From: Rozella allomycis CSF55
Taxonomy: Eukaryota
Direction of reading: 5' to 3'
DNA: 64,000 bases
Assembly: GCA_000442015.1 (NCBI GenBank)
Contig: KE561145.1
Location: 1-64,000, forward strand
The position numbers and the translations under genes were made by a program. The notes below the pieces were generated by a model. The model made no database searches, was not told the DNA's origin, and worked only from the letters and a program-made list of their open reading frames with translations. Shown here piece after piece: positions 43 to 54,594 of this stretch (its first letter is position 1; every line of letters begins with the position of its first letter).

Positions 43-1680
43 TTATTTATTGACTTTGCAAGTGCTTGTTGTTAACATTGCTAAATTGCATCCAAGCAGA
101 AGTATGATTGAAAATATTAAGCGGTTGTTTCCTTTCAGTAGATGTTGACTTGAAAGATGCAAAGTCATAATTGTCCCTAAAAACATTGGCTCAACAGCGA
201 CAGGATAACAATTCATAGTTGCTTCAAAGATCTTATTTCTTACGATAAAATGAATTACTGCTATAAATCCAATAAATGTTGAAATGAAATTGACATTACG
301 TAATAAATGCTTCGTTAACCTTTTCAATAAATCCGTTTTTGTTCGTCGAGGTATTTGAGTATCGATTGTGTATGGCAACAGGGCAGGACGCGTTTCTTTT
401 TCAATTTCAGGATAACTTTTAATTTTTAAAAGTAAATCCAAGACAATGCTAGCGCTTGGCCTCTCCGCAGGTTGCTTATTTAACAAGGTCTTTATCAATG
501 TGCGAATACGCGAATTTGAGCGAGTGATAAATTTTTCAATTATTTCAGAGTTTAAAGAAAGAATATCATTTCTTAGTTGTTCAATGTCGTCCAAGTTCTG
601 AAACGGCAATGATCGCTGATAAATATAGAGAAAAACCATTCCCAATGACCAAACATCGCTTTTAACATCGTAAATATCCGTATACTCACCTTGAATGTCT
701 ATTAATATTAATATTACAAAATTTACGCTCCAATAATTCTGGCGCCATAAATTCAAGGGTTCCTGTTGCTCCGGTTCGTTTCTTGCTCTTTATTTCGTCG
801 AGTGATTCACATTCACCAAAATCACTGATCAAAATGTTGTAATGCTTGTCGTTATATTGTAAAAGTAGATTCTGGGGCTTCAAATCACGGTGTATTATAC
901 CGTGTCGGTGCAAATGATCAACTCCACGAGTTATGTCAATCATAATATCTATCATTTCATTGTGGGTCAAATTATTTTTCAAAACAAAGTCCTCCAAATT
1001 TCCGCCAGTAGCTAATTCCATGAGTATAAATAGGCAGGGAATTTTCGGTCCAAAGACAGTAGGTTGTTCCATTTCCAACCAGGCATGCTTATAGCTAATT
1101 ATATTTGGATGATGAAACTTTTCAAGAATCTTGACTTCTTTCAACATTCTTACAAGCCATGTATTATTGTCACCTAATCCAATCACATTACTCAAATATA
1201 CCGACAGGGACCTTTTTAACCGCATAATCACCAAGAAATGTTTCGTTTAAGACATGTTTACACAGAAACACTGAACCGCGCAGTCCTCTACCCAATTTAC
1301 TTATTTCTTTGAAAAAATTCTTATAGTAATTCTGATTAAAAGCGGAATCAGGTAAGTGTTCTGAATAAGATTCTTGCGTATTTTCGTGTAAAATTCTAAA
1401 ATATTCGTTTTGAGCATATTTGTAATTTGCCTTAAACTAGAATGATATGTGAAAAACTACTTTGCTAAAGTGAAAAGGTCTTCTACAAGTGGGACAAAAT
1501 AAAGGAGATGGTTCCTTTTATAATTTCGCTTGTTTAGACTTACTTCTTCATCAAGAGATTCAGTGTCATTTATCGCGTTATTTCTAGCATCGTACAAAAC
1601 GGTTTGTTTATCTGATGAACGATATCTATAATATATATAAATTAAAGTTACAGGATAATGTTCGATTCAAATGAACTCAT
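43..1680 (-). CDS. IKS1: IKS1-family Ser/Thr protein kinase with C-terminal hydrophobic segments (4 tiny introns)
   Basis: Spliced model gives CPTCRRPF, AFNQNYYKNFF..LGRGLRGSVFLCKHVL, YAVKKVPVG, HRDLKPQN, ISDFGE, GATGTLEFMAPE. Confidence 0.85.
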
Positions 1681-13879: not shown

Positions 13880-14679
13880 TTAAAATAGTTTTACTATTGA
13901 GTTTTTGTATAAGAGAATATATGATAGACCACTGGCCAATGTCGATGCACCAATCACATATTGTAAAACATATAACAATGCTGTATGGGATAAATCGTAT
14001 ACTTTAAAGAATAAAGTACCTCCAATAAGAGTAATTTGAAGAGCAGTATTCAACTAATTGCGAGTAAAACTAAGGCATACTTTACTAATCGTCAATGGCC
14101 TGATTTCAATTGAAGGAGTCTTCAAGTCAAAAAATTTTCTGATTGTTTTCTCTAAAGGTCAGACTATTTAGATTACCGGTGGAGTTAACATTTTGTACCT
14201 TAAATACAAAGTAGCACCTAATAGGCAAATATCTCGACCAATAATTAACGCTGTTAACCATGCTATCATAAATCTTAGANATGCTATAATAAATCTTAGA
14301 TGAATTGTAGTACTTGGGAGCAAACAAATTTTCCACAATGATAAAGTACAGCAGCTCATAAGTACTTTGTCGGCAAGAGGATCCAAAAATGTTCCCAGTA
14401 CTGTTTTCTGTCTAAACTTGCGAGCTATATATCCATCTGCATAAAATAAGAAGACTTTATTAACCATACTGCGTCGCTTAGCCCAGCAAAAACAAATCCT
14501 GTCAGGGCCAGAGGGTAGTTTTGATTCAAGATATTGTATGCAATGTAAGGAGATAAAATTAACCGTGCAGTAGTAAGTGCGTTTGGAAAAGTATATATAT
14601 TTTCTCTTTTTTTAAAGATTGAAAATGCCATCCTATTCTTTAAGATTAACTTTGATGAAAGAAAAGTATTGGACAACAT
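13880..14679 (-). CDS. CRD1: cardiolipin synthase (CDP-alcohol phosphatidyltransferase)
   Basis: ENIYTFPNALT, SDAxDGYIAR, LGTFLDPLADK, IIGRD, SKLNTALQ; has an N gap and a probable 1-nt insertion near 13930. Confidence 0.85.
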
Positions 14680-14768
14680 GATGGAATTTCTGAAAAACGG
14701 ACAACGTTTTTGGAATAGTTGCTTAATTATTTAAAAAGCTATTGTGAAATGATAATTTTGTTTATATT

Positions 14769-17599
14769 ATGACCAATATGAAAGACTCTCGTAAAATTTC
14801 CGTAGTAGTAGATAGCAATCGAAGGTTTTCAGTAATGCCTAATAGAAATCACAAATATAATGAGGGATTGCATGAATCTTCGTTGAACCTTGATACTACT
14901 TTTGATCATGTTAATGATGAATTTTCAAAGAATGTAAATAAATGGGTGAAAGGTGATAGATATATCAAAAATACTTGAAACAGAAACAAAAAGAAGAAAG
15001 GGGAATAGGTAATGTTGAAGTATGTATTAGAAAGAATTCATGGACGTTGAAGATGACAAAAGCGAAAACATGATTACAATGACATTTGCTGATTCACTAA
15101 GAAATGTACTCAAAGGAATTGATAATGAACAGTGGGCAAGTTCAGAATTAAGAAATAAGTTGGTACAAATGAAAGTTCTGTAAATAGAGGCGAATATCGT
15201 CCTTTCGGAAGTTGCAATGAGGTTTTCACCACAAATGGGAAATTTAATACAAAAAGATTTTAATTCCATAATTAATAGAATATTTGTTCACAATGTTTTG
15301 AATAGTGTAAAAACTCAAGCTGATTTGTGTCTGAAAAAATCGAGATTGTATTTTGAAAGTATTGAATTATATTTGTTGTCACGAGATTGTAATAAGGCAG
15401 CTGTTTTCAGTAACGAAACGAACGACGACAGAATTTGTTCATACTTTAGGATGCAACTTTGTGAATCGTATAAATATTTTAATAAACATTCTGAAAGATT
15501 AAAAGTTGGAAAGATAATAAAAATTTGTCGGCAAGAAGCATTGAATGGAATCAGAATAGAGCCGCCCTCAGAAAAAGAAAAAATGACAAAACAGTTAAAG
15601 GATGTAAACTTAGTTTTTGATCTTTTTAGTTAAGTTTAAAGTTATCATTGTATAAAAGCAAAGCTAATTTTGCAGTTCTAGAAGAAGAAATAAAGAAATA
15701 CAAATTTCAAATACCGACAGCACCCTTGCAAAAGGATGTTGAAGAGGAAGAAATTAAAGAGTTGAAAATGGAAGACAATAAAATATTAATGATTGACCAA
15801 AGTTGGATTGAAAGGGATTTAAAATTTTTAACTAGTAGAAACAATGAGTCAGTAAACAAAATCCAGCAAGTGAAGAATGCCAATCCGTTGTTGATTGATG
15901 GGCATGTTTTTAGTAAATTTATGAAACAAAATGTAGCACTTCAATCCACCGACTTTGATTCTTCCATATTTGAAGTGGGCGATTTTATTTCAAAAGTATT
16001 TGAATCAGAACAAAAAGTTGAAATCAAAACAGAAAAACTAATTAATATTAAAGAAGACAAAATTGTAGAAGATGAAATGAAAGAAAGACCAAAAACTAAA
16101 AGAGAAAGATATTTGAGACCCTTAACCCACAGGACTGGGAAATTATCTAATCTAGATTTTGAATCTATAGAACTCAGAGTAATTTTGTTGCTAAATGAAG
16201 AGTAGCCGAAAACTAAAGATTCAATTGACAAGAAGATTGAAAATGTTCCAGATTCACCATGGAAAGAATCGGTAGTTGAAGGGAATGTTCTTAGATTAAT
16301 GGATTCAAGACTATCAAATAGACAACAACAAGAATCCATAGATTTATCGCCTAGCGATTTAATAAAAATTGATTTTATAAATGACACATCTGGAAATGAC
16401 GTTTCCTTTTCTATTTCTGATTTATTGCCTGGTATTTTTACATTTATCAAAAAGATTAGAAAGCGATGAAGAGATTTCGCAAGATCTTTGTGAAATATTT
16501 AAGCATTTTACAGAATCGGCGATGGATTCCTTGTTGACGTTAGAGGAAGATGAAGAAAATCAAATTTGCTCACCAATTTTAAAAGAAAATATTAGCGATT
16601 ACTCCATGAGATTTTTTAAAGGAGAAAGATTTGTTCCAGAAGATCAAATCAGGAAACTCAAAGATCGCAAGGACCAGGGTGAAGAAAGAAACAAGGACCG
16701 TAACAATGAAGAAATTAAAGGAAATGAATCTAAAAATAAATTAAAAAATATAAAAATTAAGACTCCAAAAACTGGGACGTTAGAAATTGAGGATTACTTC
16801 AAGTATCTTCAATTGCATAGCAATGATTTTCTTGATTCTTTAATTCTTGATCGATTTCTAGTTGACATGGCAGAAGAAACAAAAGAACTTTTGAAAATGC
16901 AAAAGCAACAAAAAGATTACGAATTAGAAAAAAAGATTAGAGAGGAAGAAGAAAGGAAGCGTAAAGAAAGAATTTCAGAGATGCTTCACTTTGAGAAAGG
17001 GAAATGGAATTCAAAAATCATCGATTACTTTGATGAAATAAAATCTAAAAGGTTTCCTAAAGTTTTCTTAATTTTATCTAGTCCTTTTTCAATCCAAGAG
17101 AGATTGGAAAGAATTTGGCAAGTTCTTGAGCTGGAAGACTGTGAAAGAATTTCATTGGCTATCAAATTTGGTAATCACGACTTTGATGGTAATAAATATT
17201 TACACCTCATTATTGTAAATGCTTTAAAATGCTTGGAAGAAATCGTTTCTCTTATCATTAAAAGAGAGGCACTCATGAATGACATAAAGGAATTTGAGGT
17301 TGAAGGGTCAAATCCAAGGTATTTTAATTTGTAATTTTAAATTAGGTATCTTATTCCATTCATGTCAATGTAGACGTTTTTATTACAAACAATACAGCTT
17401 TTTACAAGAATCAAACATTCGGCAAACGTTACTGCTTCAACTTGAAGAAATGCAGAACGTTCTAACTCCCTTGATCGAAAGATTTCAAAATACGCATCAT
17501 GAAATAATACGCTATAAAAGACAAAATTATCTTTCAAAAATGAAAAACGATTATCTTCAAATTCTTCATTTACTTGAAATAGAAAGGAGAAGCACTTAA
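14769..17599 (+). CDS. CCDC87-like coiled-coil protein
   Basis: C-terminal IQERLERIWQVL..ERISLAIKF..KRE..FEVEGSNPRRF resembles the CCDC87/MAP65-like domain. Confidence 0.6.
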
Positions 17600-17677
17600 A
17601 GTAAGAACTTATGTCTTTTATAACCAATGAATAAATCGAATCACAAAATAGTTTTAATTTCATATCAAATTTTAGAT

Positions 17678-19573
17678 TTATTGTGTAGAAATGAGCCTAG
17701 TAATTTTCCCAATCCCCTTTGTCCTTCCTTCACGAAAGAGTAGTCTTTTTCCAAGTTGCATGTATTCAGGCTTTTTAACGAATCTGAAGCGTACAAACGA
17801 TCGATCGCCTGTCCTTAACACCTTTGACTGTTCTTTGTCACTGTTGGAAACAATCTCCATTATAGTTGCTGTTTGTCGAACAGTCCCACAGTGAATCATC
17901 GTTTGATAGCTGGGCTTAATTGTTGTCGAATGATACAATATAAGAACTTCAGCCTCGAATTCTATTGCAACGTACCCACAAAAAACACTAGGGTACCTCA
18001 AACAACCAGGGTCACTAATGTACTCTGCCAAAGATGGAGACGGACATGGTTTTGGTAATCCTTGTTTGTCAACCACCACCATTCCTTTTCTCAATTGATG
18101 TCTCTTTATTTTTTTCAAAGCTAACGTCGCACACTGGCCAGCAACGGTAGAATTAACATTAACTCTTTTCCTGTGAATAGATTTTATTATGCAAGGGAAA
18201 AATACTCCATGTTCATCAGGCCCAAAATAAAGCGTTTGGCCAACATCAATCTTTCCAGATTGCAAGTTCCCTGAAATCACTGTTCCAACACCCTATTAAG
18301 TATAGAGTAATAAACTTACAGGCACTGAATAGGTTTCTGTTAATTGATACTCAACAGGATCTTCACTGTGGTATTCTTGATATATTGGAAGCAAATTAAG
18401 AAAGCACTTTAAAAGATCCAAGCCAGCACCTGTCACATTAGAAATTTGAAATATCGGACATAATCTAATTTAGAGTTACTTCTGCGTGTTTACTTTTCAG
18501 TGACTAAATTATTTACTACTAAAATCAAATCATGGATTGATTTTATAAAGACCGGGGTTTTCTTGCAACCAGGGCTTTTAACCATTTTCGCCAATTGTTT
18601 CAACGTATCATCCAAAACATTAGCTGGGCACATATCAACTTTTGTAACAACTATGAAAAATGGAACGTTCAACGCAACAGCTAAACCTACATGCTCTTTT
18701 GTCATTCCAACCACCCCTGCATTCGATCCTACTATAAGCATAACAAAATCTGGTGAATATCCAGTCATCCCGAATACACTAAGAATTCATTTCAAAATAA
18801 TTACGTCGTCTTTAAATACTTTTCATGGCCGGCAAGATCAATGAACGTTAAAAGTTTAGACGACTGCATTGACACAGACTCCCAACTCATTTTCCGCAGG
18901 GACACAATCAAACTCTCATCAGCAATTTTCTCAGCCTGATTTATTTCCCCTGTTTTATTTTCTAATTTTTCTATGACTTTTTCAATTGTTTCATTTTTCC
19001 TTCCAATTATACTATGTGTTGTTGCTGGACCAACAACATTCCCATGCTCATCAAAGCCAAGTATTTCCATGCCCACAGAAGAAGTTCTCCCTGTTTCAAT
19101 TTCATGCGGATGTTTGAAAAGTGTAACACGAGCTTTACCACGCCAATTTAAATGTAATAATTACCATTACCCGTCATCCTCCATTCCTTTGGTTATCACA
19201 CCCAAAGTGGTGCTTTTTCCTGCATCAACATTTCCCACCACTGCGACTCTAACCTCTAAATTCAAGTCTGTGACACTGTCAGCCTTGTAACGACAAAGAA
19301 TGACGGATTGTTTTGGACCTTTGTCATCAACTGATGTGTAAATAGGAGTCGCCACAAAATTCAATTCTTCTGACACAACCTTGATATTTTTCAAACAAGC
19401 TAGCAACGAAGATTCGGTAAATGATTCGTCAGCATCAACAAAATTAATAGGCAAAAGAAATTCACCGCGAACGAGATTTTGTTGAAAGAAGTCCTTTGTT
19501 TCCTTGTCGGGGTCACGCTTTAAAATCTATATCTTGTTAATTTGTTGTGATATACCTGAATAGCATCGTTCAT
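17678..19573 (-). CDS. GTPBP1: GTP-binding protein 1 (translational GTPase)
   Basis: [62 protein letters not shown]. Confidence 0.93.
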
Positions 19574-19709
19574 CTAACTGTGGCTGGGAGTCTAGCCATC
19601 AAATCAATAACATTCAATCGAAATAAGATTTCAAAAAATTCATTTCATCGGTAGATTAAAAAAATAAATTTATTTACACAGTACACTACACTAAACAGAG
19701 GCTGCCCTA

Positions 19710-20183
19710 TTACGCCATCGTTAAAGGGCTATTCTGGCGTATTATTTTACATATTTTCCTCTTCTTAAAATCAATTATCAAAAATCTTATTAGCAAAAAT
19801 ATGTCTATTGTGAAAAATATTGCACTAAGTCCAGCCATAATTCCGTCTGCTTTAATCCACCCGTTAGACGCAAACCAATCATGCTCTAAACTATTAATTC
19901 CAATGTATTGAGCCGAAATAATATTTAGTAAGATGATGAGATCTAATAATATTGTTAGTAAAATTAAATAATTGCATTGAAGCCTCTTTCGTTTTAGAAT
20001 AAAAGACGCCAAATTCAAAATCAAGCCAAAAATGCATACCAAGCAAGTAAACCATCTAGAATATACTTCAAATATCTCAAAAGGTTCCCAAAACTCTAGC
20101 TTGTTGATGAAGGCAAACATTGCATAGCCAGAATTACTTACGGCGAAGAAAGTAAACGAAAGGATATTTAAAAAATGGGCCAT
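19710..20183 (-). CDS. small four-TM membrane protein, unknown function
   Basis: Intronless 157-aa ORF with about four hydrophobic helices. Confidence 0.55.
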   Translation of the reverse strand: MAHFLNILSFTFFAVSNSGYAMFAFINKLEFWEPFEIFEVYSRWFTCLVCIFGLILNLASFILKRKRLQCNYLILLTILLDLIILLNIISAQYIGINSLEHDWFASNGWIKADGIMAGLSAIFFTIDIFLLIRFLIIDFKKRKICKIIRQNSPLTMA

Positions 20184-20290
20184 AATGCGAGGTAGTTTCG
20201 ATATATCTTTTGTAACCTTTGATTTTGATTCCACACATTCACTCTTCTTACAAGCTAAAAAGTCCATGCCTCTTTTCGTGTGGCTTGGGT

Positions 20291-21517
20291 ATGAAATCAA
20301 AGGCTTTACGATCTTTTTCTTTATTTGGCATAATAATATCTTGCCTTGCAGGAATAACAACTTTTTATCTGTATCTGTATATCCCCTACCTAAAGCCTAT
20401 TCAGACAACTTCCCAAATTCAAACAAATGGCTTAGAAGCAGTTTTGAACACTTCAATACATCACACACAGGAACTATATAGCTTGCATTATACAAAAACG
20501 GGATATAGTCCTCCGCGGTTAGCATTTTTATTAATGGCACATAACTACAGTTCAGTAGAAGGACTATTCAAGATCTTAAAAGTACTTTACACTCCATATC
20601 ATTATTTCGCAATACATTTTGACGAGAAAGTGACTCAGATAACATATCAAGGATTTGTCACTTTATTTAAACTGCATTTCGGTTATCCAACAAACGTACA
20701 AATCAGCCAAGACAGAATAAATGTTAAGTGGGGCGAGTTTAGTATACTAGAGGCAGAATTACTATTGCTAGATATGGCTTTCAAATGGAACAAAGAACGC
20801 CCAGCAGACGAAAAATGGGAAAGGTTGTTAATTTTGTGTGGGCATTCATTCCCGTTGCAAACTATTCAAAGCATTGAATTTGCGTTTTATGCGATGAACA
20901 AAAATATGAATATTCTATGGGACCTTGAAGGGCCAAAGAAAACATGTGAATATGGACAGCGCTATGGTGAATATTGCAAGAGAACGTCAGCACGGTGTGC
21001 GAATCCTGAATGCACTAAAATGACACACTCTTACAAAGACTTTGTTATTTATAAAGGTTCTCAATGGGTTTCACTTACTTTTGAGTATGTCAATTACATT
21101 TACGGGGAAGGGGCTGAGGACTTTCATGGGTTAATTAACTTTTTTCAAAAATCAATATTTGCACCTGAAGAATTGTTATTTCAAACCAGTATAATGAATT
21201 CTCGGTTTAATACGACCGCTGTGACTGGAGAGGTTGGAAACGAAAGCGCTGGATCGTCTGTTCCATATATGTTCAAAACGTGGACAGACTGCAATTCATA
21301 CCCTAATCCACGCCCCGGAGCCTCACCGTGCACACTTGGGAAGAATGATTTGAGCTCGATATCTAAAATGTACAAAGATGGATACCTGTTTGCAAGAAAG
21401 TTTAATCCCCTGGACGAACTCCATACCAAAATAGAAGGAAATCTAGTTCAAAGAATTGTAAATTCACATAGCGCTAAACAAGAAAATGCACAAATGGTTC
21501 AAGAAATATTGCAATAA
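20291..21517 (+). CDS. GT14 glycosyltransferase (core-2/I-branching / xylosyltransferase-like), type II membrane
   Basis: RLAFLLMAH, IHFD, VKWGEFSIL, KGSQWVSLT, PEELLFQT, LFARKF. Confidence 0.88.
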   Translation: MKSKALRSFSLFGIIISCLAGITTFYLYLYIPYLKPIQTTSQIQTNGLEAVLNTSIHHTQELYSLHYTKTGYSPPRLAFLLMAHNYSSVEGLFKILKVLYTPYHYFAIHFDEKVTQITYQGFVTLFKLHFGYPTNVQISQDRINVKWGEFSILEAELLLLDMAFKWNKERPADEKWERLLILCGHSFPLQTIQSIEFAFYAMNKNMNILWDLEGPKKTCEYGQRYGEYCKRTSARCANPECTKMTHSYKDFVIYKGSQWVSLTFEYVNYIYGEGAEDFHGLINFFQKSIFAPEELLFQTSIMNSRFNTTAVTGEVGNESAGSSVPYMFKTWTDCNSYPNPRPGASPCTLGKNDLSSISKMYKDGYLFARKFNPLDELHTKIEGNLVQRIVNSHSAKQENAQMVQEILQ

Positions 21518-21531
21518 AATATAGAATGTTT

Positions 21532-22188
21532 TTATTGTTCATTTTCTTGTTTTTTTGGTTCATCATTTTGAATCGTTTCACCTTCAAGGCGTTCAACTTG
21601 TGATTCCAGTGTATCCAGCTGTTGTTTAAAACTTTCTTTAACTTTTTCTTTAATTTGATTGCACTTTTCTTTAATTGCTGTTTGATCGAAAATCTGATCG
21701 GGCAATAATTCTGCCGGTCTGAAGAATAAACTGGGCATAGCGTTTGTCGACAGAAAGTTTGAATAATTGTCATATCTTTTCTCTAGATCTGCCGTCTGTC
21801 ATTAACTAAATTCACTTTAATTACAATTGTTTGTTCTAATTGAAGAGTTTCAGATTTTCTGGCATCTAGAATACGGGATCGTCTTTCTTTTCGTTCTTTC
21901 TCCATAATAATTCTTGTTTGTTCTTTTTCTTGTGCGAGTTTTTCTTTCAACTTTAGATCGATTTCCTTTCTTTTGTTATCAACGCCTATTGTCTGATTCA
22001 GATCCTGCTTAAATTTTGATAAAGTGCCTAGCATAACACCCATCATTCTTTTGTTTCTTTTTATATCTATGGGGTCATTTTTAATCCTTTTCTGTATGAC
22101 ACTAGAATATGACTCTTACTGTTAAACTCTCTGATTCTGCATTTCCTAGTCTCTTTGGAGCGTTTTCAATAACTGAAGGCAAAACCAT
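21532..22188 (-). CDS. PNN: pinin/SDK/memA domain protein
   Basis: KRNKRMMGVMLGTLSKFK; NFLSTNAMPSLFFRP. Confidence 0.8.
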
Positions 22189-22231
22189 TATGATAGAAAC
22201 ACTAAAGTTACTTTCTTACCCCTGTCCTCAA

Positions 22232-23132
22232 ATGCCTCTTGTCATAATAACTGGCTTTCCCAAATCCGGAAAAACAAAGCGCGCAGAACAGTTAAAAAAA
22301 TGGGTATTAGAGAACAAAGGTAAGTTTGTTTGGGGCCAAAATCTCGATAAAGTTGTACTTTTGAATGAAGAATTTTTGAACATCAATAAAGATCTATATA
22401 ACAGTAAATTTTATTATCAACATTTTAATAGATTCAAATGACGAAAAAAAGGTACGAGGCGCTCTTGTAGGAGCCGTAGAAAGATACCTTAATAAGAAAA
22501 CGTTAGTTATTTGTGATTCTATGAATTACATAAAAGGGATTCGCTATCAAATGTATTGTATTGCGAGATCTATTGGAACTCTCCAGTGTGTCGTTCACAT
22601 TTGCACATCTAGCGAAAATTGTTCAAAATTTAACTCGATCGACAACACCTACGACAACGAGACCCTCAAAAATCTAATCAGTAGATATGAAGAACCGAAC
22701 GAATTCAATAGATGGGATAAACCCCTCTTCAATGTTCAAGTAGACGATTTAGATATTCCTTGCGAAAAAATAATGAAGTGCCTTTTCGAAAAAGAAGCGC
22801 CATTACCTAATCTCTCTACGATATCAGTAAGTTCAATTTTTTTCATTGAAAAGAAACCTGCTATGGATAATGTTAAAAACATCGATCAAACTATTCAAAA
22901 GGCGACGAAAACGGTACTGGAGAGACTAAAGGATGATCCTTTAATTCAAAAGATTGACATTGAAAATGCATCCATTCCTGTTTTATTAAATGGAAATAGA
23001 GTGACTCTTATAGAAATGAAAAGACATCAACATCAGTTCATGAAATTGTACAATCATTTGCTAACATCAAACATGGATGATCAGACGGCTTTAAATTCTT
23101 TTGTTGAATATTTAAATTCTCAGTTTAAATAA
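22232..23132 (+). CDS. KTI12: Elongator-associated protein KTI12
   Basis: MPLVIITGFPKSGKT, DSMNYIKGIRYQMYC, RYEEPNEFNRWDKPLF. Confidence 0.93.
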
Positions 23133-23357
23133 ATTAGCATTCAATTTTTATTTTTAGGCCAACTAATTTGGCTTTTAGTTTTGTCATTTGTGGGGTTTTC
23201 AAAACTCTCAGAGGTTACTACTTGCGGTATTGTTACGGCAAGTAGTGCTATTTTTTATTGCCGTGTATAGAAACTAAAAAGAATGAATTGGGCTAATAAA
23301 GTATCATTAGCGTTTTAATTTTTCAGGTCGGCACATGTGGCTTTTCTGGTCTAAACA

Positions 23358-24180
23358 ATGGGTATTAAATGACACTTTTAGTTATCAAGGTGCTTTGTTT
23401 AGTAGGATTTTTTCAAGACTCTTTGGTGAAAAAGAATATAGAATACTTATACTTGGATTAGACAATGCAGGAAAGACGACAATTCTATACAGACTGCAGG
23501 TAAAACTTATTACCATAATGAAACATTAGCTCGGAGAAGTTCTAAGTACAATTCCAAGTAATTTTTTCATTGTATGATTACAAAGCTATTGGATTTAATA
23601 TGGAAGTTCTTCAATACAAGAACCTAAAGTTTCAGGGTACTCATAGATATTATACTTCAAACAGTTTGGGATCTTGGCGGTCAATCGAGTATACGACCGT
23701 ACTGGCGTTGCTATTACGCCAATACTCAAGCCATTATATATGTGGTGGACAGCACAGATAAAGCCCGATTATCAGTTTCAAAAGCTGAGCTGATTTCAAT
23801 GTTGGAAGTAATTTACATCAGTTCTAAACACAAAGGAAGAAGAATTAAAGGATGCCGTTCTTTTAGTATTTGCAAATAAACAAGATTTGAACGGAGCAAT
23901 GTCCGTAGCTGAAGTTTCAGAAGGCTTGGGATTATCACTTTTGAGAAATAGACAGTGGTGCATATTCAAGACAAGTGCTATTAAGGGTGATGGTCTCACT
24001 GAAGGACTAGATTGGTAACTTTATACCAGAAGCATCAAATCTAGGCTTGTAAATGCAGTAACCGGTAATACACAAGAAGCTATAAACATTGCACCTGCAG
24101 TAGAATCAGTTGATCAAAATAATGACACTGAGGTTGTTGAGCAAGTCGAAGAACCTAAATTGGAAGTACCAACAGAATAA
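23358..24180 (+). CDS. ARL1: ARF-like GTPase ARL1 with an acidic C-terminal extension (6 introns)
   Basis: [45 protein letters not shown]. Confidence 0.93.
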
Positions 24181-24304
24181 ATTGATATTACATAAAACTC
24201 TTATCAAAGATTATATTTATAAAGTAGCAAATATCAATTCTTATTTGGTTTCACATATGCCATCAAATCTATAAATAGTGTCACGATTTTCCGATATTTA
24301 TTCC

Positions 24305-25126
24305 ATGCCTTCGCAAGATCATCATGATAACGTTGATAGTTCTTCCTATACAATATCCCATTTAATGGAGGGTATTAAAATATAAATATACATCATAGAA
24401 ATCGGAAAAAGATTATCCCTTCGATCAGAGAGAGACGACCTTGTACAGAAAAACATTATAAAAGGCAAGTTTTAGAAATCCAAGATAAAAGGTAGACGAT
24501 AAAAAAATATCTTCTTCGATTGTTCAAGCCAAATTGTCACTAGAGAAAGAAAAGGAAAAGGAAAAACTCAATGGAAGAATCCAAAGGAGACCTTCCAAAG
24601 CAGAATTAGAGGAAAGAAATATTTTAATCCGTATGAGGATCATTTATCAATGATAGAGGACACAACCAGCACAGACCCATTAACCATTCGTAGAAAATCA
24701 TTTGAATTTAGACAAACGCAGTTAAAATCTTGCCTAAGAAAACGAATGGATAAAAACGAACTTCAAGAGAGAAATATTTTGAAAGGTATCGACTATCATT
24801 TGCTTAAAATAGACACAAAAACGGATCCAGCATTGGCATCAGCTTCGGCTAAACTAATTCGCGCACAGCTAGAGAATTCTTTAGAAAATAAAATGCAACA
24901 TAGACCAACTCCTGAATCTATTGCCAAAATCTTGGGATTCAAAGATGTTGTAGAGGTTTTACCTACCTACAGAGCTGATGACTACAATAGAAAAGTTGAT
25001 GACAATGTCACATTCAAAATGCTAACCCCGAAACTAAAGCAAGAAATAAGAGAAGAATTAAATCAATACAAGAGAGAAGAGATGATAGTTCATGAAGAAA
25101 GTGTAGCTAATACGGCTTTTCATTAA
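24305..25126 (+). CDS. RPEL-repeat, PP1-binding protein (Phactr/Bni4-like)
   Basis: RPSKAELEERNIL-type repeats; C-terminus VEVLPTYRADDYNRK..LTP..IREELNQYKREEMIVHEES..T.FH. Confidence 0.8.
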
Positions 25127-25185
25127 AGCTTAAATAAACTTTTTGCGCTCTTCATTTTCTTTTTTCTCAAACGTTGAGACCAAAC

Positions 25186-25908
25186 ATGTCCACAACGACA
25201 TTGAAAATTGGAAAAACTAAAGCCGTTATGTCCTTAAAGTTGATCTCATCAGAAAAACAAAACTATTTAAAAATGGCTTCATCCATCAACCCGCGCTTGG
25301 AAATAATCTTAATAACACTGCTTAGAAAAAGGTTACACCCTTTAGGATGGAAAATATTTCAAAGTGAGGATAGCCAATGCACCATATCCAATATTTACTA
25401 CAAAAATTTAAAGCTAGGAATAATTGTTGACTTTAAAATAAAGGGAGTTCCTTTGCCAATACTGAATGAGGCTATAAATAGGGTGGAATTTCAAAAGGCT
25501 CTAAAAATGAAATTGGACAAACTAATTAAGATTGAAATCAATTCTTTAGTGAAAGCAAGGGCTCATCTATTTTCAAAATTTGGTAACAAAAATGGCCGGA
25601 CAAAATTAGATAATGACCGTTTAAATCTATTTCTCTTTGACATTATGGTTGAAAGTATGACCGAGTTGGCGATGACATGTAATATTGATACCAGCAAGAA
25701 TGATATTACGAATGTTCTAAGACGACAATTTGGCGCCACATGCTCAACTGATTCATTTGACTTTATCTGCAGCTCATCCGATGGGTTTGAATCGATGGGC
25801 TTATCTGATGAATTTAACTCTGTAGTTCTCACCGAGGACGAAAATGATTTTGAAAGTGTTTTAAGTGACGATAAAGACGCCTTTAAAGAAATATCATTTG
25901 ATGAATAA
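25186..25908 (+). CDS. hypothetical protein, acidic C-terminus
   Basis: Intronless 240-aa ORF that fills the gap between neighbours. Confidence 0.5.
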   Translation: MSTTTLKIGKTKAVMSLKLISSEKQNYLKMASSINPRLEIILITLLRKRLHPLGWKIFQSEDSQCTISNIYYKNLKLGIIVDFKIKGVPLPILNEAINRVEFQKALKMKLDKLIKIEINSLVKARAHLFSKFGNKNGRTKLDNDRLNLFLFDIMVESMTELAMTCNIDTSKNDITNVLRRQFGATCSTDSFDFICSSSDGFESMGLSDEFNSVVLTEDENDFESVLSDDKDAFKEISFDE

Positions 25909-25953
25909 ATAGACTTTGTTAATGTAAATTTTTGTCTCTCAGTCTCTTTTTTA

Positions 25954-27079
25954 TTACTTTGAATTCCATAGTCCTAAGAGAATTCCAATGATTACAATGA
26001 TTATTGAGAGTAACACTGAAAAGGGACCAAAAGTCGAAATAATGCCTAAATTAGATAAACGATGTAAAATTACAGAATGAAAGGAATGCTGGAATTGAAA
26101 ATCTGGCCATTTTATTCAAATCTTCTAATTGGAATGCTACAGTCGCAATGACATTATCTCTATGATTTTTAGTTGAAATAGTTTTTAATAACAAGACTAT
26201 CTCCGTTAATGATATTATTTCGCGGAATTTATTCTTTATCGGAAGACAAAAATCAGGTTCGCCGTTTAGAGAAATAATTTGGAGCTGTAATTGCTTTTTG
26301 AAGGCCAATATTTGATTAGCAGTAATAGAATCTTTTAATAAGTCCACTTTTATCGATTCCATCAATTTAAAGTAATCTTTTTTGAATTCGTCCAAAATCA
26401 AGTCAAGAAGATCCTTCAACTCTGTAAGAATTATAGATGCACAGTTTACCCAATTTCGAAGACAAGTTCAGCTCAGATAAAATATCCAAATTGGTGAAAT
26501 TAAACGTAATTAAAAGGTTATGAGATGACGAATATTGAAACAATTTTCCATGCTGGTCAATTATACTCCTCCAGTTTAAGGAATTTGTGAATAACTATTT
26601 TGAAACTATCATGAGTTTACATGAATAATAAATTCTTTTTCATCATCGTTTGGATTTTCAAGATGCAGCCATGCGGCGTTTTCTGGATTGTCAATTAAGG
26701 TTATGAAAGAAAAGTGCCCGGAATCAAGCTCTTCAAAACTTTCTGCTTGCAAAAATCCTGATATGGGCGTATAAAATGTTATCCTATTGTATTTTAGGGT
26801 GACGTTTTGAGATTTTGGCATAGAAATGCCCATTCCGTCTTTGAAAGCCTTAAGAGATTCCACTGCCCATTCACGCTTGATACGTGAATCGGTAAAAACA
26901 TTTTTATTCAAAACATCGACTATTGGTTCATTTGATACTAAATTCTGGATTGCAGCGGTTAAGGGGAAGGAGGAAGGATCAGGAGTTTGAGACAGAAAAT
27001 TTGGAAATTTAATGTGAGGATGTTTAGAGAAAGATGATTTGGGTCTATTTGGCGAAGAATCCAAAGAACTTTCAAGCAT
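25954..27079 (-). CDS. divergent CorA/Alr1/Mnr2-like divalent cation transporter
   Basis: RITFYT..AESFEEL..F..LI..AWLHLENPNDDE N-terminal motif; two C-terminal TM helices; no GMN motif. Confidence 0.6.
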
Positions 27080-27141
27080 TAAAATGAAACAACCAAAATT
27101 CTGAAATTTATGAAAATAAAATTGAAAAGAAAAACATTAGA

Positions 27142-29003
27142 TTAGGACTGTCTAAACCAATAAACTAATTGTTCGGCGGATATTCTTTGCGAGGGATTTG
27201 GATCTAGCATTTTTGTGATTAGAGTTAAAAGTTCAGGCGATCGATCAACTTCGAAGGGTATCTGAGAAAAATCACCCGTCCGCAGCTTTCTCCATTCTTC
27301 ACCTTCGGAAGGTAATTCGATGTTTGAAGCGACTTCTAGAGCAATCAATCCAATGCTATCTTAAATAATTAGTTAATTTTACCTAAATATATCTGCAGGT
27401 TTATCGTAAAAGCCTTCAAGAATTTCAGGCGCGATATAAAATTTGTCACCTTCCGTGTCTACTGTGCTCAACTTTTCAACTCAAATGTACTATTTTACCT
27501 CGGAATCTTGACAAGAAAGGCCAAAGTCTCCTATCCTGAATCGATAGTCGCCGTCAATTAATATATTGGCGGGTTTGATATCGAAGTGAATGACTCCCGA
27601 CTGATGAATATGATAAATTCCCTACTTTCCGACTCAGTACATTATTACCTCTGCCAAGTCCGAAAGGATTCTGTATATTTCTTGTTCTGAAAAAAATCCG
27701 CCCTGCAGAATTCGTTTGTTCATTAAGGTTTCTAATCTAAAAATTTCCTAATACATTCAAAATTACGTTCCATTTGGGTATAATTCTGTTTCGATGTAAA
27801 GATAGCCATATTGTTCCCAGCTAGATAGTATTCTGACAATGTTTGGATGTCCACAAACTAACCAGAGATTTTCGACTTCTTCAAGATGTTTCAGCCTAAT
27901 TTTTGTATGACTGACCCTGGTTACCTGTCACACAACCCCTGAAATGGAGTTCGAGTTTTCTTTACAGNCCCCTGAAATGGAGTACGAGTTTTCTTTACAG
28001 CCGAAAATAAGCCATCGTCCCTTCGCCTTGTTTTATAGACATCGGCAAAAGAACCACTACCAAGGGACTCTACTATTTCGTAATGTGTAAGAAAATAGTC
28101 CTCCTTGTCATTGAAATCGCAATTCAAGAGTTCGTTCCGATCTTTCTGGGAGAAAAAGTGTTTATCGAGTATGTGGGGAAACATAGTTCGCCAAATAAAG
28201 ATTGACGAAGAAACGCCTCGCATTTCAGAAGAAAAGTTTTGCTTCTCATCGTTACGAGTAAAAAGTAATAAAGGAGACATTGCCATTTCGTTCTCGTCAT
28301 TATCGTTGTCATCAAATATCATGGAATTTCTGTCATCGTCTTCCCTTATCGGTGATGAATAAAGATTAAACGATTTTCTTTGGTCTAAAGGCGACGAAGG
28401 TGAGGCTGGTGATTGTTGAGGATCAAAGGGTGGAGATGACGATCTGACGTATAGAGGAGTTTGAAAAATATTATGTGCATGTCCAGGATGCGGAGTACTA
28501 GGATTAGGAGAACCATCTTCATCTGTTTGCTCTTCTTCTATTCCTGGCCTTCTTATTGCTTGTGACTCAAAAACATCTTCGACCCACTTGTTATTCTCTG
28601 GGGCTTTTGATAATAGCGAGTTCCTTCTCGGCGTACCAATACTCTGTTTAATAGTTGATTGCACAATCTGTGGTGTATACTGCAATAAAACTTTGCTGTG
28701 CATTTTCTTTGATGGTGTATTCGGTGTTGGAGTAGAAGCTTCTGAAGTCTTTCCAAGTAATCGCGTTTTCTTGGACAAAAATCCCGTGGATCGGAACGCT
28801 AAAGGATCTGGCTTAATTCCTTTCCATGTAGGTGTAGCATCAGGTGATATATTATTACTCGGCATTGAAAGGCGTCTTGCAAAAGGACTAGCACCAGATA
28901 TCTGCGAGCAGGTATTTTCCTTATTTTCCCAAAATAATTCTGAATCTTTTCCTTTGTTAGAAAACGGCGAAAACTCGTCTGTTGCTGGTTGTGTTAACGT
29001 CAT
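27142..29003 (-). CDS. WEE1: Wee1/Myt1-family kinase
   Basis: LGSGSFADV, YLYIETELYPNG, HFDIKPANILI, EGDKFYIAPE, ELPSEGEEWRKLRTGDFS. Confidence 0.9.
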
Positions 29004-52295: not shown

Positions 52296-54594
52296 CTATA
52301 TTTTATTTTTTAGCATCGATTTAGCAATGAACAAGTATTTGTCGACCGCTTCTTCAATTCTCTTTTCTAAACTTTTTCCACTTCCATGCCCAGCCTATTT
52401 GATTGTAAACTCATATTTACCTTTGTTTCAATCCTTATTAAAAGAGGATGATCATTTTTGGGCAAATTATACTGAAGTTCAGATATCCATTTGTATGAAT
52501 GAAGTGGCACAACTCGATCGTCATGATCACTGGTCATTACTAGCACGGGTGGATATTGCTTTGAAGAATCAACGTTATGGACAGGCGAATATCTTTTAAA
52601 AATGTGAAGAATGTATACTTTGACAAACATTCGAAATGCTCTACAATGTCTGGGTTACCATATTCATCCATCCAAGCATGGCCGATTGTAAATTTATGAA
52701 ATTTCAACATATCCAAAACCCCAACCTCGGCGATTGCACACCCAAATAATTCGGGTGCTTGATTTACACATGCCGCCACTAATAATCCTCCATTGGACCC
52801 ACCATTAATCGCCAACAATGAGGGGCAAGTGTAATTATTAGCAACAAGGTACTTCGCAGCCCATTGAAAGTCATCAAAAACATTTTGTTTTTTATTTAAG
52901 ATCCCGGCTTTATGCCATTCCTCGCCATATTCGCCGCCTCCACGCAAATTCGCGATTGCAATAGTCATATTTAGCTCATCTGCCGCTGCGGCCATGCTTG
53001 AACTAAAAAAAGGTGTCAGAGAAATGTTAAATCCCCCATATCCATATAACAGACATGGTGTTTGTCCATTTCTTGGGATGGATCTTTTATTAAAAATGAA
53101 CATGGGGATTCTCTGAGAATCTTTGCTTTCATAGAAAACTTGCTCTATAACGAATTTAGAGGGTTCAAACCCCACAATTTCATCTTGCCTCCAAATGGTT
53201 GGGGTTGTGGTCAAGTCAGATAGGTCATATTCATACACCAATCCAGGGGTATTGAAAGAATAAAACTTAAAAAATACAACAGTATCCTTTTTTCTGCCTT
53301 TAATGTAAGCAACAGAGCCAATATCTAGTGGAATGCAAGTCAGGTGAGTCCCAGACAAGTCAAAGACATCAATTACATTCTGTTTTCAAATCATGAATCG
53401 TTTACCTTGACATCTTTCATATAAACACAAATAAGTTTATTTTTTGCAACGCAGTAGCATGATTCTAACACGTCTGCCGCCTCAGGAATAACAACGTCGA
53501 CCTTTAAAAGAAATGTAAAATTAATACTAATGAAGTGTTATTGATGTCTATTTTAATCAATTTTTCCTTTAAAGCATTTGAATTGGTCTTCAAGTAGAAA
53601 ATATTATCTTCATTTGTAATGTATTCGTAACTGGCTTCAAAATCATCGAAAAGCTTAATTATTTTGTGCTTGGAAAAATCACAAATGTCTAATTGTTGCA
53701 CAAAAAGTTTGTTAGCATTTTCTGTAGAGCGACTTGTGGAAATGATTAGATACTTCCCATCATCAGACACAGTGGCGCTGGGCCGCCAATATGGCTCATC
53801 GGAATATTCAAATATTAAAATATCGTCTTTTTGGCAAGTTGCTAGTTTATGGTAGTACAATTTCGGAAACTTATTTAGGTTAGTTTCGGTACCTTTATCT
53901 ATTTGTTTTATTTGTGGATAGCGCTTTATATAACAAGGACAATTTTATTACAGTGTAGAAAAATCCATCATCATTATGTACCCAGGAAATCGAACTAAAT
54001 TTTACCCATTCAATTCTGTCTGGAAGCTTTTTCTTCTCCACGTCTTGAATTTGAATTGTCACCCAGTCACTGCCATTACATGATACACCAAAGGCAAAAT
54101 ATTTCCCAGATTCACTGAAAGAATATGTGTTCAAAGACGCACTCCCGTCAACTGCCAACTCATTTGGGTCGAAGAATACTTCTCCTGGGTCACTTATTGT
54201 TCTTGTTTGGTATATTTTTCGTATAAATTTAGAAAAGGTTTCTTACGAATGATTAAATGTTCCATCATTATAGAAATAATAGTAGAATTCACCCGATTTA
54301 AAAGGTGCTTCAGTTTTTTCGTAGTTGAAGAATTTTTTGAACCTTCTACATTCATAACAGTATTGTTACCTATCTTTAAGTTTGCTTCTAAGAGGATCAT
54401 CATTGATATACTCAAAGAATAGTTCATTTTGTGACGAAACAAATGCCTGGTGAAACTAAATGATTACTTCATACCCTCGTTTCATCAGAGTCAGGATTTT
54501 CAAGCCATGAATAGGGGTCAGAGATTGATCTACCACAACAAAGGTATTTAGAATTAATATCTCTCGTCACAAATGGAAAATTGAAGCTGCTCAT
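52296..54594 (-). CDS. PREP: prolyl oligopeptidase (S9A)
   Basis: DPYSWLENPD, LYGYGGFN, GGSNGGLL, DHDDRVVP, AGHG. Confidence 0.95.

What the first reader, a model, noticed from the sequence alone, without database searches (positions are those of the whole stretch)
19144..19170. Obligate 27-nt GT-TG intron in GTPBP1
Minus strand reads GAT GAC GG|gtaatggtaattattacatttaaattg|G CGT GGT AAA GCT CGT, which gives the conserved DDGRGKAR. Unspliced, the frame hits TAA at once. The first downstream AG (…ggtaaag) gives the wrong frame. No canonical solution keeps the motif.
Basis: seen in the sequence. Interest (0 to 1): 0.85.

Follow-up and report, generated by a model that had tools for sequence, protein, structure and literature searches.

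The report
Tiny intron ending TG in GTPBP1
A 27-base intron-like insert in a conserved translation-GTPase gene of the fungal parasite Rozella ends in TG instead of the near-universal AG, so the gene either depends on a rare non-standard splice or has very recently been broken.

Summary
On the minus strand, 19170-19144 is a 27-nt AT-rich segment, GTAATG...AAATTG, with two in-frame TAA codons. It sits exactly between DDG and RGKAR of a GTPBP1 gene.

- **Organism:** the window's coding sequence equals that of a Rozella allomycis CSF55 protein.
- **Homologs:** all 57 aligned homologs and a solved GTPBP1 structure have no residues at this point.
- **Intron class:** the organism has many 26-29-nt GTA...AG introns, 40 confident ones in this window. 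The segment matches that class in length, 5' site and 3' context, but not in its last two bases.
- **Canonical alternatives:** none of 48 in-frame canonical splice solutions keeps the motif.
- **Not a base-call error:** contigs of two independent DNA runs carry identical letters across it.
- **Selection:** 10 of 12 allelic differences in the coding sequence are synonymous, so the gene has been under purifying selection.
- **Public models:** both mis-handle the junction.
- **RNA:** no RNA data could be obtained, so splicing at TG is inferred, not shown.

The best reading (about 0.5) is a real GT-TG intron of the ultra-short class. The main rival (about 0.3) is a recent inactivating A-to-T change at the acceptor. 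A second possible non-AG 27-nt intron (GT..CG) lies in a prolyl oligopeptidase gene at 54246-54220.

The parts
19144..19170 (-). 27-nt intron-like segment GTAATGGTAATTATTACATTTAAATTG, with 5' GT and 3' TG. It holds two in-frame TAA codons and is 81% A+T.
   Evidence: The letters are identical in contigs of runs X2 and X5.
19171..19526 (-). Exon 2 of the GTPBP1 gene. It ends ...[26 protein letters not shown] (P-loop G1 motif) in phase 2 (GG|).
18805..19143 (-). Exon 3. It begins (G)CGT GGT AAA GCT = [22 protein letters not shown] (switch I) and ends ...[14 protein letters not shown].
19556..19573 (-). Proposed exon 1 (ATG AAC GAT GCT ATT CAG). It is absent from the public 'partial' model.
   Evidence: Read. 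The frame is intact in the 585-codon model.
19527..19555 (-). Intron 1, 29 nt, GTATAT...ATATAG.
18779..18804 (-). Intron 3, 26 nt, GTAATT...TCTTAG (canonical).
18494..18778 (-). Exon 4 (rest of the GTPase domain).
18465..18493 (-). Intron 4, 29 nt, GTAAAC...AATTAG (canonical).
18320..18464 (-). Exon 5, ending ...TETYSVP.
18293..18319 (-). Intron 5, 27 nt, GTAAGT...TAATAG (canonical). The public model instead uses a 33-nt GTGCCT donor and loses the conserved residues VP.
17678..18292 (-). Exon 6 (EF-Tu domains 2 and 3) plus the stop codon TAA at 17680-17678.
19133..19201 (-). 69-nt GT-AG intron used by public model P0002 (GTGTGA...GTAAAG). It would delete [11 protein letters not shown], the 27 nt and RGK.
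   Evidence: Its donor scores 0.22 against the window's intron profile, below the lowest of 40 typical donors at 3.32.

Best explanation
The 27 nt are a genuine spliceosomal intron of this organism's ultra-short class (26-29 nt, GTA...AG) whose last two bases are TG instead of AG. To make GTPBP1 with its invariant DDG-RGKAR segment, the spliceosome must pair the normal GTAATG 5' site with the TG at nucleotide 27. I infer that in introns this short the 3' cut is set largely by distance from the 5' site and branch region, and that the retained final G plus the usual T at -3 are enough for the second step. Efficiency is probably reduced, so unspliced transcripts or transcripts spliced at the AG 11 nt downstream (both carrying premature stops) would be by-products. 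Shown here: the DNA letters, the exact homology-defined boundaries, the fit to the intron class, and the signature of purifying selection on the gene. Inferred: that the RNA is actually cut at TG, and how the site is chosen.
For: Boundaries: 57 of 57 aligned homologs and solved GTPBP1 chain 9ypg_jj show zero residues between DDG/DNG and RG.AR, while the window has exactly 9 extra codons there. By pattern, 233 of 238 homologs show no insert, and none shows one.

Intron class: 40 confident GTA...AG introns were found in the window, with lengths of 26 nt (15), 27 nt (15), 28 nt (2), 29 nt (5) and other (3). Among GTA donors, 78 of 152 donor/phase entries have their first frame-consistent AG at 26-29 nt.

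Fit of the candidate: it is 27 nt long. Its 5' profile score is 7.04, exceeding 15 of the 40 typical scores (range 3.32-10.19). Its 3' context without the last two bases scores 4.09, exceeding 36 of 40. It is 81% A+T against a mean of 74%. It has T at -3, as do 24 of 40 typical introns.

No canonical escape: 0 of 48 in-frame solutions keep the motif.

Real DNA: X2 record 8 (19108-20729) and X5 record 16 (19108-20520) each differ from the window at only one place (20203) and have no gaps.

Gene otherwise intact: 585 open codons and four canonical tiny introns.

Selection: 10 of 12 allelic differences in the coding sequence are synonymous. The probability is 1.2e-5 to 6e-4 under neutral expectations of 22-34% synonymous.

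Copy number: the two Rozella proteins returned by the two searches (P0002 and P0122) both derive from this locus, and no paralog appeared.

Precedent and parallel: functional GT-TG introns are reported in human genes (PMC4176328, passages read). A second 27-nt GTA-intron with a non-AG end (CG) is favoured by homology in the prolyl oligopeptidase gene of the same window.
Against: There is no RNA evidence of any kind. In the window, AG is otherwise the rule: all 40 typical introns were selected to end in AG, and TG or CG ends are not enriched among open-frame GTA candidates. AG was seen 94 times against 26.9 expected, TG 25 against 30.5, and CG 5 against 9.7. From general knowledge of splicing, changing the A at -2 usually blocks or strongly impairs the second step. 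The intron lies in a 1.4-kb stretch with no allelic differences, directly beside a patch with 10 differences in 235 nt. The synonymous-biased differences therefore do not date the TG, which could be a recent change. From recall, GTPBP1 is dispensable in some fungi such as Saccharomyces, so its loss in a reduced parasite is plausible. All DNA runs may come from one cultured strain.
Confidence: 0.5

Rival explanations
1. This is a recent loss-of-function change. An ancestral ...AAATAG acceptor mutated A to T at -2 in this strain or lineage. The intron is now retained or spliced to the AG 11 nt downstream, both giving premature stops. GTPBP1 would then be a nascent unitary pseudogene or severe hypomorph that has had no time to collect further lesions.
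For: A single substitution turns the typical TAG end (T at -3 in 24 of 40 introns) into TTG. AG is otherwise the rule in the window. The intron sits in a stretch without allelic differences, next to a highly polymorphic patch, as expected after loss of heterozygosity or gene conversion, which could make a new mutation homozygous. All holders carry only two coded organism labels, so one cultured lineage is possible. The parasite has a reduced genome, and from recall the gene family is missing in some fungi.
Against: The gene has no other lesion: 585 codons are open and four other introns are canonical. 10 of 12 allelic differences are synonymous. No paralog that could take over was seen. A second non-AG 27-nt intron candidate in the same 64 kb fits tolerance of non-AG ends better than two independent disabling mutations among about 42 introns.
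Confidence: 0.3
2. The gene is spliced canonically, as in public model P0002, through a 69-nt GT-AG intron (19201-19133). The protein then simply lacks 14 residues ([14 protein letters not shown]) between the P-loop and switch I.
For: This solution is in frame, free of stops and GT-AG, and it is the deposited annotation.
Against: The deleted residues are conserved in 57 of 57 homologs, and the window encodes them perfectly on both sides of the 27 nt, which would be a coincidence if they were intronic. The GTGTGA donor scores 0.22, below the minimum of 3.32 among 40 typical donors. A length of 69 nt is outside the 26-29-nt class. The same model also drops the conserved VP at another junction, where a typical 27-nt GTAAGT intron keeps it, so it appears to be an automatic model forced to canonical sites. 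From general knowledge of P-loop GTPases, the helix after the P-loop would be truncated.
Confidence: 0.08
3. Sequencing or assembly error: the true genome has AG (or an extra A giving ...TTAG) at the intron's 3' end.
For: The window contains 11 single N's. It also has at least three letters that differ from all three laid DNA runs (17268, 17684, 20203), so it is not error-free.
Against: Contigs of X2 and X5 come from two studies and carry a different organism label from the possible source run. Both span 19108-20520 or beyond, with a single difference (at 20203) and no gaps, at mean word depths of about 151 and 285.
Confidence: 0.02
4. The 27 nt are translated: TAA is read as an amino acid (ciliate-type code) or read through, giving a 9-residue insertion.
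For: The segment is a multiple of three and contains no TGA or TAG.
Against: No homolog has an insert here. Long ORFs in the window are open under the standard code, and the gene ends at TAA. Neighbouring introns are not multiples of three and contain TGA. The organism is a fungus-related parasite by its protein matches.
Confidence: 0.01

Closest known systems
U2-type GT-TG introns of human genes (GNAS, TSPYL2 and others)
   Same: They have a normal GT 5' site with a U2-like consensus and TG in place of AG at the 3' end. They are reported as functional (PMC4176328, introduction and results passages read).
   Different: The human TG site described in the passage read (TSPYL2) is an alternative 3' site. 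Here the TG would be the only productive site, in a 27-nt intron, in a fungus-related parasite, and without RNA proof.
The organism's own ultra-short GTA...AG introns (26-29 nt)
   Same: Length of 27 nt, GTAA start, A+T richness, T at -3, phase and coding flanks. Short introns of about 30 nt in Rozella allomycis are mentioned in PMC6349667 (passage read).
   Different: The final dinucleotide is TG. All 40 reference introns end in AG, although that was a selection criterion.
Splice-acceptor null mutations and nascent unitary pseudogenes
   Same: A single-base change at -2 of an acceptor, with the next AG out of frame, is the classic form of a disabling splice mutation (general knowledge).
   Different: There is no other lesion. 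The polymorphism is biased toward synonymous changes, and there is no spare copy.
Very short introns of ciliates and nucleomorphs (recalled, not tested here)
   Same: Introns of about 18-30 nt with conserved GTA...TAG ends, where length is tightly constrained.
   Different: The lineage is different. Those introns are described as strongly AG-terminated, and the standard genetic code applies here.

Membership tests
Canonical U2-type GT-AG spliceosomal intron | 5' end GT with a consensus-like hexamer | tested here: met
   The 5' end is GTAATG. Its profile score is 7.04, within the range 3.32-10.19 of 40 window introns.
Canonical U2-type GT-AG spliceosomal intron | 3' end AG | tested here: not met
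   The 3' end is TG at 19145-19144. The same letters appear in two independent DNA runs.
Canonical U2-type GT-AG spliceosomal intron | Removed from the mature RNA | not testable with these tools
   No RNA run holds the locus. The one RNA run laid gave only 18-31-nt scraps.
Ultra-short intron class of this genome (GTA...AG, 26-29 nt) | Length 26-29 nt | tested here: met
   The segment is 27 nt. Class lengths are 26 nt (15), 27 nt (15), 28 nt (2) and 29 nt (5) among 40 introns.
Ultra-short intron class of this genome (GTA...AG, 26-29 nt) | GTA start, A+T-rich body, T/A-rich 3' context | tested here: met
   The segment is 81% A+T against a mean of 74%. Its 3' context score without the last two bases is 4.09, exceeding 36 of the 40 typical scores.
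Ultra-short intron class of this genome (GTA...AG, 26-29 nt) | Terminal AG | tested here: not met
   The terminal dinucleotide is TG.
Non-canonical U2-type GT-TG introns | GT at the 5' end and TG at the 3' end, with U2-like flanks | tested here: met
Non-canonical U2-type GT-TG introns | Junction seen in transcripts | not testable with these tools
U12-type (minor spliceosome) intron | 5' consensus RTATCCTT and a matching branch-site box (motif recalled) | tested here: not met
   The 5' end reads GTAATGGT, and no TCCTTAAC-like box occurs in the 27 nt.
GTPBP1 family of translational GTPases | EF-Tu-type GTPase domain plus domains 2 and 3, and close similarity to GTPBP1 proteins | tested here: met
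   Pfam GTP_EFTU, GTP_EFTU_D2 and GTP_EFTU_D3 match on the exons. Fungal 'GTP-binding protein 1' hits reach 40-51% identity. Solved GTP-binding protein 1 chain 9ypg_jj matches at E 3.8e-28.
Pseudogene | Disabling lesions (frameshifts, stops, lost splice sites) and relaxed constraint | tested here: inconclusive
   The only lesion is the non-AG acceptor. There are 585 open codons and four canonical introns, and 10 of 12 allelic differences are synonymous. The age of the TG is unknown.

The most novel reading that the evidence does not exclude
In Rozella allomycis the ultra-short introns are defined mainly by their length and 5' site, and the -2 position of the acceptor is relaxed. A few percent of them would then end in YG (TG here, CG in the prolyl oligopeptidase gene at 54246-54220) and still be spliced constitutively. 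If so, automatic gene models of this genome, which force GT-AG, would systematically delete or scramble conserved residues at such junctions, and this lineage would be a natural system for AG-independent 3' splice-site choice.
Probability: 0.2. Interest if true: 0.65.

Novelty: new member of a known kind. Interest (0 to 1): 0.4.

Why it matters
If the TG is used, this is a constitutive GT-TG intron that is the only productive splice in a conserved single-copy gene, sited in a 27-nt intron. That would be a compact natural test case for how the second step of splicing picks its site when there is no room to scan and no AG.

It also has a practical consequence already shown here: both public protein models for this locus are wrong at the junction. 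One lacks 14 conserved residues of the GTPase core. The other is a chimera that jumps 2 kb. The same problem probably affects the neighbouring prolyl oligopeptidase model.

If instead the TG is a fresh null mutation, the locus records a gene loss in progress in a genome-reduced parasite related to microsporidia.

Tried and rejected
- **RNA evidence:** The look-up of sequencing runs listed no RNA holder. The only RNA run offered (X12, 0.00 of the words) was laid and gave five scraps of 18-31 nt with mismatches and one spurious joint. It says nothing for or against expression or splicing.
- **Whole genome:** none is held for this window, so genome-wide intron statistics, a paralog search and a look for splicing factors were impossible.
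- **Relatives in metagenomes:** one scan gave a single locus, L001. It is an intronless, distantly related (40% identity) GTPBP1-like gene with a contiguous DNGRGLAR, so it is useless for intron conservation.
- **Transcript-derived proteins:** two database searches (lengths 'longer' and 'near') returned only the two genome-annotation models for Rozella. Neither is a correctly spliced form.
- **Ciliate code reading (table 6):** tried and rejected. The insert is absent from all homologs, and the standard code fits the window.
- **Sequencing error:** rejected.
- **More non-AG tiny introns in the window:** several scans were run. Apart from the GTPBP1 junction, which was the top-scoring non-typical junction, and the prolyl oligopeptidase case, the candidates were shadows of canonical introns, antisense ORFs or gene ends. 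TG and CG ends are not enriched overall.
- **Technical failures:** timed out and was rerun in a faster form.
- **Earlier findings of this scan:** none for this genome or these words.
- **Literature:** a search for Rozella + 'splice site' + 'non-canonical' found 0 papers. I saw nothing in print on non-AG introns in Rozella.

Full report
**What is in the sequence.**
On the minus strand the window reads ...GGA ATG GAG GAT GAC GG|GTAATGGTAATTATTACATTTAAATTG|G CGT GGT AAA GCT CGT GTT ACA..., and the 27 nt occupy 19170-19144. Read straight through, the frame gives GGG TAA, with a second TAA two codons later. The flanking open frames carry EF-Tu-type GTPase signatures, and the downstream exons carry EF-Tu domains 2 and 3.

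**Organism and gene.**
- The window is about 34% G+C.
- A protein search with the read-through translation P0001 (made with table 6 purely to test that reading) found 5059 relatives among 6497 candidates.
- The best hit, P0002, is named by NCBI 'Elongation factor, GTP-binding domain-containing protein, partial [Rozella allomycis CSF55]'. All other listed hits are fungal or unnamed GTP-binding protein 1 homologs at 37-51% identity.
- The window's DNA reproduces P0002 letter for letter when spliced with introns of 69, 26, 29 and 33 nt. The window is therefore this organism, or one indistinguishable from it at this locus.
- The closest solved structure is 'GTP-binding protein 1' (9ypg_jj, E 3.8e-28).
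- No whole genome is held for the window.

**The boundaries are fixed by homology.**
- In an alignment of P0001 with 57 full-length homologs (P0003-P0059), 57 of 57 read ...LGV[LIV]T+G.LDDG directly followed by RG[KRS]AR. The window has nine extra codons exactly between them, and its flanks (GMEDDG and [22 protein letters not shown]) match the conserved pattern.
- Across all 238 fetched homologs, a pattern search found zero inserted residues in 233. The other 5 did not match the pattern, and none had an insert.
- HMMER against the solved GTPBP1 chain opens a 9-residue gap at the same place.
- Shifting the cut by one base left or right gives the same mRNA with GG..TT or TA..GG ends. GT..TG is the only register with a normal 5' end (read).

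**No canonical way out.**
I enumerated all GT/GC-AG and AT-AC pairs around the site. There are 48 in-frame, stop-free solutions, and none retains DDGRGKAR. The first AG after the GT (19134-19133, 38 nt) shifts the frame and runs into stops.

The least damaging canonical choice is the 69-nt intron 19201-19133, which is what public model P0002 uses. It deletes [11 protein letters not shown], the 27 nt and RGK.

A second public model from the same organism, P0122, uses the same GTAATG donor at 19170 but jumps to an AG at 17139. It also fuses the upstream gene, giving a 214-residue chimera.

Neither model therefore rests on a transcript of this junction. P0002 also drops the conserved VP at another junction, where a typical 27-nt GTAAGT...TAATAG intron keeps it (the homologs shown read SVP[FYH]VGTV).

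**The organism's intron class.**
The window is full of very short introns.
- Among GTA donors next to coding-like frames, 78 of 152 donor/phase entries have their first frame-consistent AG at 26-29 nt.
- A stricter junction scan gave 40 confident GTA...AG introns, with lengths of 26 nt (15), 27 nt (15), 28 nt (2), 29 nt (5) and other (3). GTA and AG were selection criteria in that scan.
- A published passage notes two putative short (~30 nt) introns in the S23 gene of R. allomycis (PMC6349667, passage read). Another gives 2.5 introns per kb of coding sequence (PMC8476143, passages read).

Against a profile of the 40 introns, the candidate compares as follows:

| Feature | Candidate | Typical introns |
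|---|---|---|
| 5' site score | 7.04 (exceeds 15 of 40) | range 3.32-10.19 |
| 3' context score, last two bases excluded | 4.09 (exceeds 36 of 40) | range -3.03 to 4.97 |
| A+T content | 81% | mean 74% |
| Base at -3 | T | T in 24 of 40 |
| GTGTGA donor of the 69-nt model | 0.22 | minimum 3.32 |

In one search the GTPBP1 junction was the top-scoring junction lacking a typical solution. In every respect but the A at -2, this is an ordinary member of the class. A single A-to-T change separates TTG from the usual TAG.

**Is the TG real DNA?**
Yes. Logan contigs of two DNA runs, X2 and X5, were laid on 14300-27900. The two runs come from different samples and studies and carry a coded organism label different from that of the possible source run. 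X2 record 8 (19108-20729) and X5 record 16 (19108-20520) each show one other letter, the listed A>T at 20203, and no gaps. Mean word depths are about 151 and 285.

A third run, X6, spans 18976-21618 with 9 other letters. Only 4 of them were shown, and none of those 4 lies in the intron. The remaining 5 are not visible to me. An assembly error is thus rejected, although contigs cannot exclude a minor allele.

**Is the gene alive?**
My model has exons 19573-19556, 19526-19171, 19143-18805, 18778-18494, 18464-18320 and 18292-17681, with a stop at 17680-17678. It gives 585 open codons, and the other four introns are canonical tiny introns.

Runs X2 and X5 contain two haplotypes. Twelve differences fall in the coding sequence, and 10 of the 12 are synonymous. 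The exon ends used were off by 12 nt and by 1 nt in frame-neutral ways, and were corrected. With 22% (any change) to 34% (transitions) of changes expected to be synonymous, the probability of 10 or more is 1.2e-5 to 6e-4. The gene has therefore been under purifying selection.

There is a caveat. Ten of the differences sit in 18873-19107, whereas 19108-20520 has none in X2 or X5. The intron therefore lies just outside the polymorphic patch, and the age of its TG is not constrained.

The only Rozella proteins returned by the two searches both come from this locus, so no spare copy was seen.

**RNA.**
No RNA run holds the locus. The single RNA run offered gave only 18-31-nt scraps. Whether the TG is used is therefore an inference.

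**A possible second case.**
In the prolyl oligopeptidase gene on the minus strand, the frame ...YYYFYNDGTFNHS meets TAA at a GTAAGA donor (54246).
- The public model P0242 uses the next AG, making a 45-nt intron (54246-54202), and reads ...FNHS|TISDPGEVFFDPN.
- All 30 non-Rozella homologs have a segment with a hydrophobic-aromatic pair there (for example SVLYKQDALDSPATVFFDPN), and none shows a deletion.
- Removing 27 nt instead (54246-54220, GTAAGA...TATACG, ending CG) gives ...FNHS|KIYQTRTISDPGEVFFDPN. This has the same spacing as the closest homologs, with IY in place of LY.
- HMMER's alignment to porcine prolyl endopeptidase runs ungapped from RKIYQ.

This case is suggestive, not proven, because a canonical in-frame alternative exists. 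Overall, TG and CG ends are not enriched among open-frame GTA candidates: AG appears 94 times against 26.9 expected, TG 25 against 30.5, and CG 5 against 9.7. Non-AG ends are therefore at most a small minority.

**Interpretation.**
- **Best reading (0.5).** This is a real intron of the ultra-short class that is spliced at TG. The site would be chosen by its fixed distance in an intron too short to scan, helped by the retained final G and the T at -3. Efficiency is probably reduced. GT-TG introns that function are on record in human genes (GNAS, TSPYL2; PMC4176328, passages read). PMC1557818 was seen only as a search listing. Szafranski et al. 2007 is recalled only.
- **Main rival (0.3).** A recent A-to-T mutation killed or crippled the acceptor in this lineage.
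- **Minor rivals.** The 69-nt canonical model (0.08), a sequencing error (0.02) and translation of the insert (0.01).

Two non-AG candidates among roughly 42 tiny introns in 64 kb lean toward tolerance of non-AG ends rather than toward two independent disabling mutations. The numbers are small, however, and the second case is uncertain.

**Novelty and verdict.**
A search for Rozella with 'splice site' and 'non-canonical' found no paper, and earlier notes of this scan hold nothing on this genome. The kind (GT-TG) is known, so this would be a new member of it, unusual in being the only productive site of a 27-nt intron in a conserved gene. The finding is real and worth an RT-PCR. Without RNA it remains a well-bounded hypothesis. 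What is established is that both public gene models are wrong at this junction.

Noticed in passing
window 54220-54246 (minus strand); canonical alternative 54202-54246: In the prolyl oligopeptidase gene, a 27-nt GTAAGA...TATACG segment (GT..CG) restores a six-residue stretch (KIYQTR, with IY matching the conserved LY/IY) that all 30 non-Rozella homologs possess. Public model P0242 uses a 45-nt GT-AG intron and lacks that stretch. This may be a second non-AG tiny intron.
   Followed up: partly
window 18293-18325 (minus strand): Public model P0002 uses a 33-nt intron with a GTGCCT donor and loses the conserved residues VP. A typical 27-nt GTAAGT...TAATAG intron (18319-18293) keeps SVP, as in the homologs shown.
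   Followed up: yes
window 19556-19573 and 19527-19555 (minus strand): A likely first exon (ATG plus five codons) and a 29-nt GTATAT...ATATAG intron lie upstream of the point where the 'partial' public model starts. With them the gene has a start codon and 585 codons.
   Followed up: partly
window 17139-20396 (minus strand): Public model P0122 is a chimera. It joins the upstream membrane-protein-like ORF (19713-20396) to GTPBP1 exon 2, then splices from the 19170 donor to an AG at 17139, which lies inside sequence antisense to the neighbouring plus-strand gene.
   Followed up: yes
window 18568-19107, and 17268, 17684, 20203: Two haplotypes coexist in DNA runs X2 and X5, with 10 differences packed into 18873-19107 and then none for about 1.4 kb. 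At 17268, 17684 and 20203 all three laid DNA runs differ from the window. The pattern suggests mosaic heterozygosity or loss of heterozygosity, plus a few private letters in the window's assembly.
   Followed up: partly
window 8357, 9341, 9440, 9552, 9861, 11138, 11244, 13487, 13717, 14280, 27968: There are eleven isolated single N's. These are probably ambiguous (heterozygous or low-quality) consensus calls rather than gaps.
   Followed up: no
L001 2935-4413: An intronless 492-codon GTPBP1-like ORF lies on an AT-rich metagenome contig, at 40% identity to the window's protein, with a contiguous SLDNGRGLAR. Its origin was not determined.
   Followed up: no
window 1437-1465 (minus strand): Between ORFs 1666-1460 and 1436-1191, the frame-consistent canonical solutions are a 29-nt GC-AG (GCAAAG...TTCTAG) segment from 1465 and several longer GT/GC-AG options (35-65 nt). 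The obvious 24-nt GTAG...CTAG segment is out of frame. This may be a GC-AG tiny intron, or the two ORFs may be unrelated.
   Followed up: no
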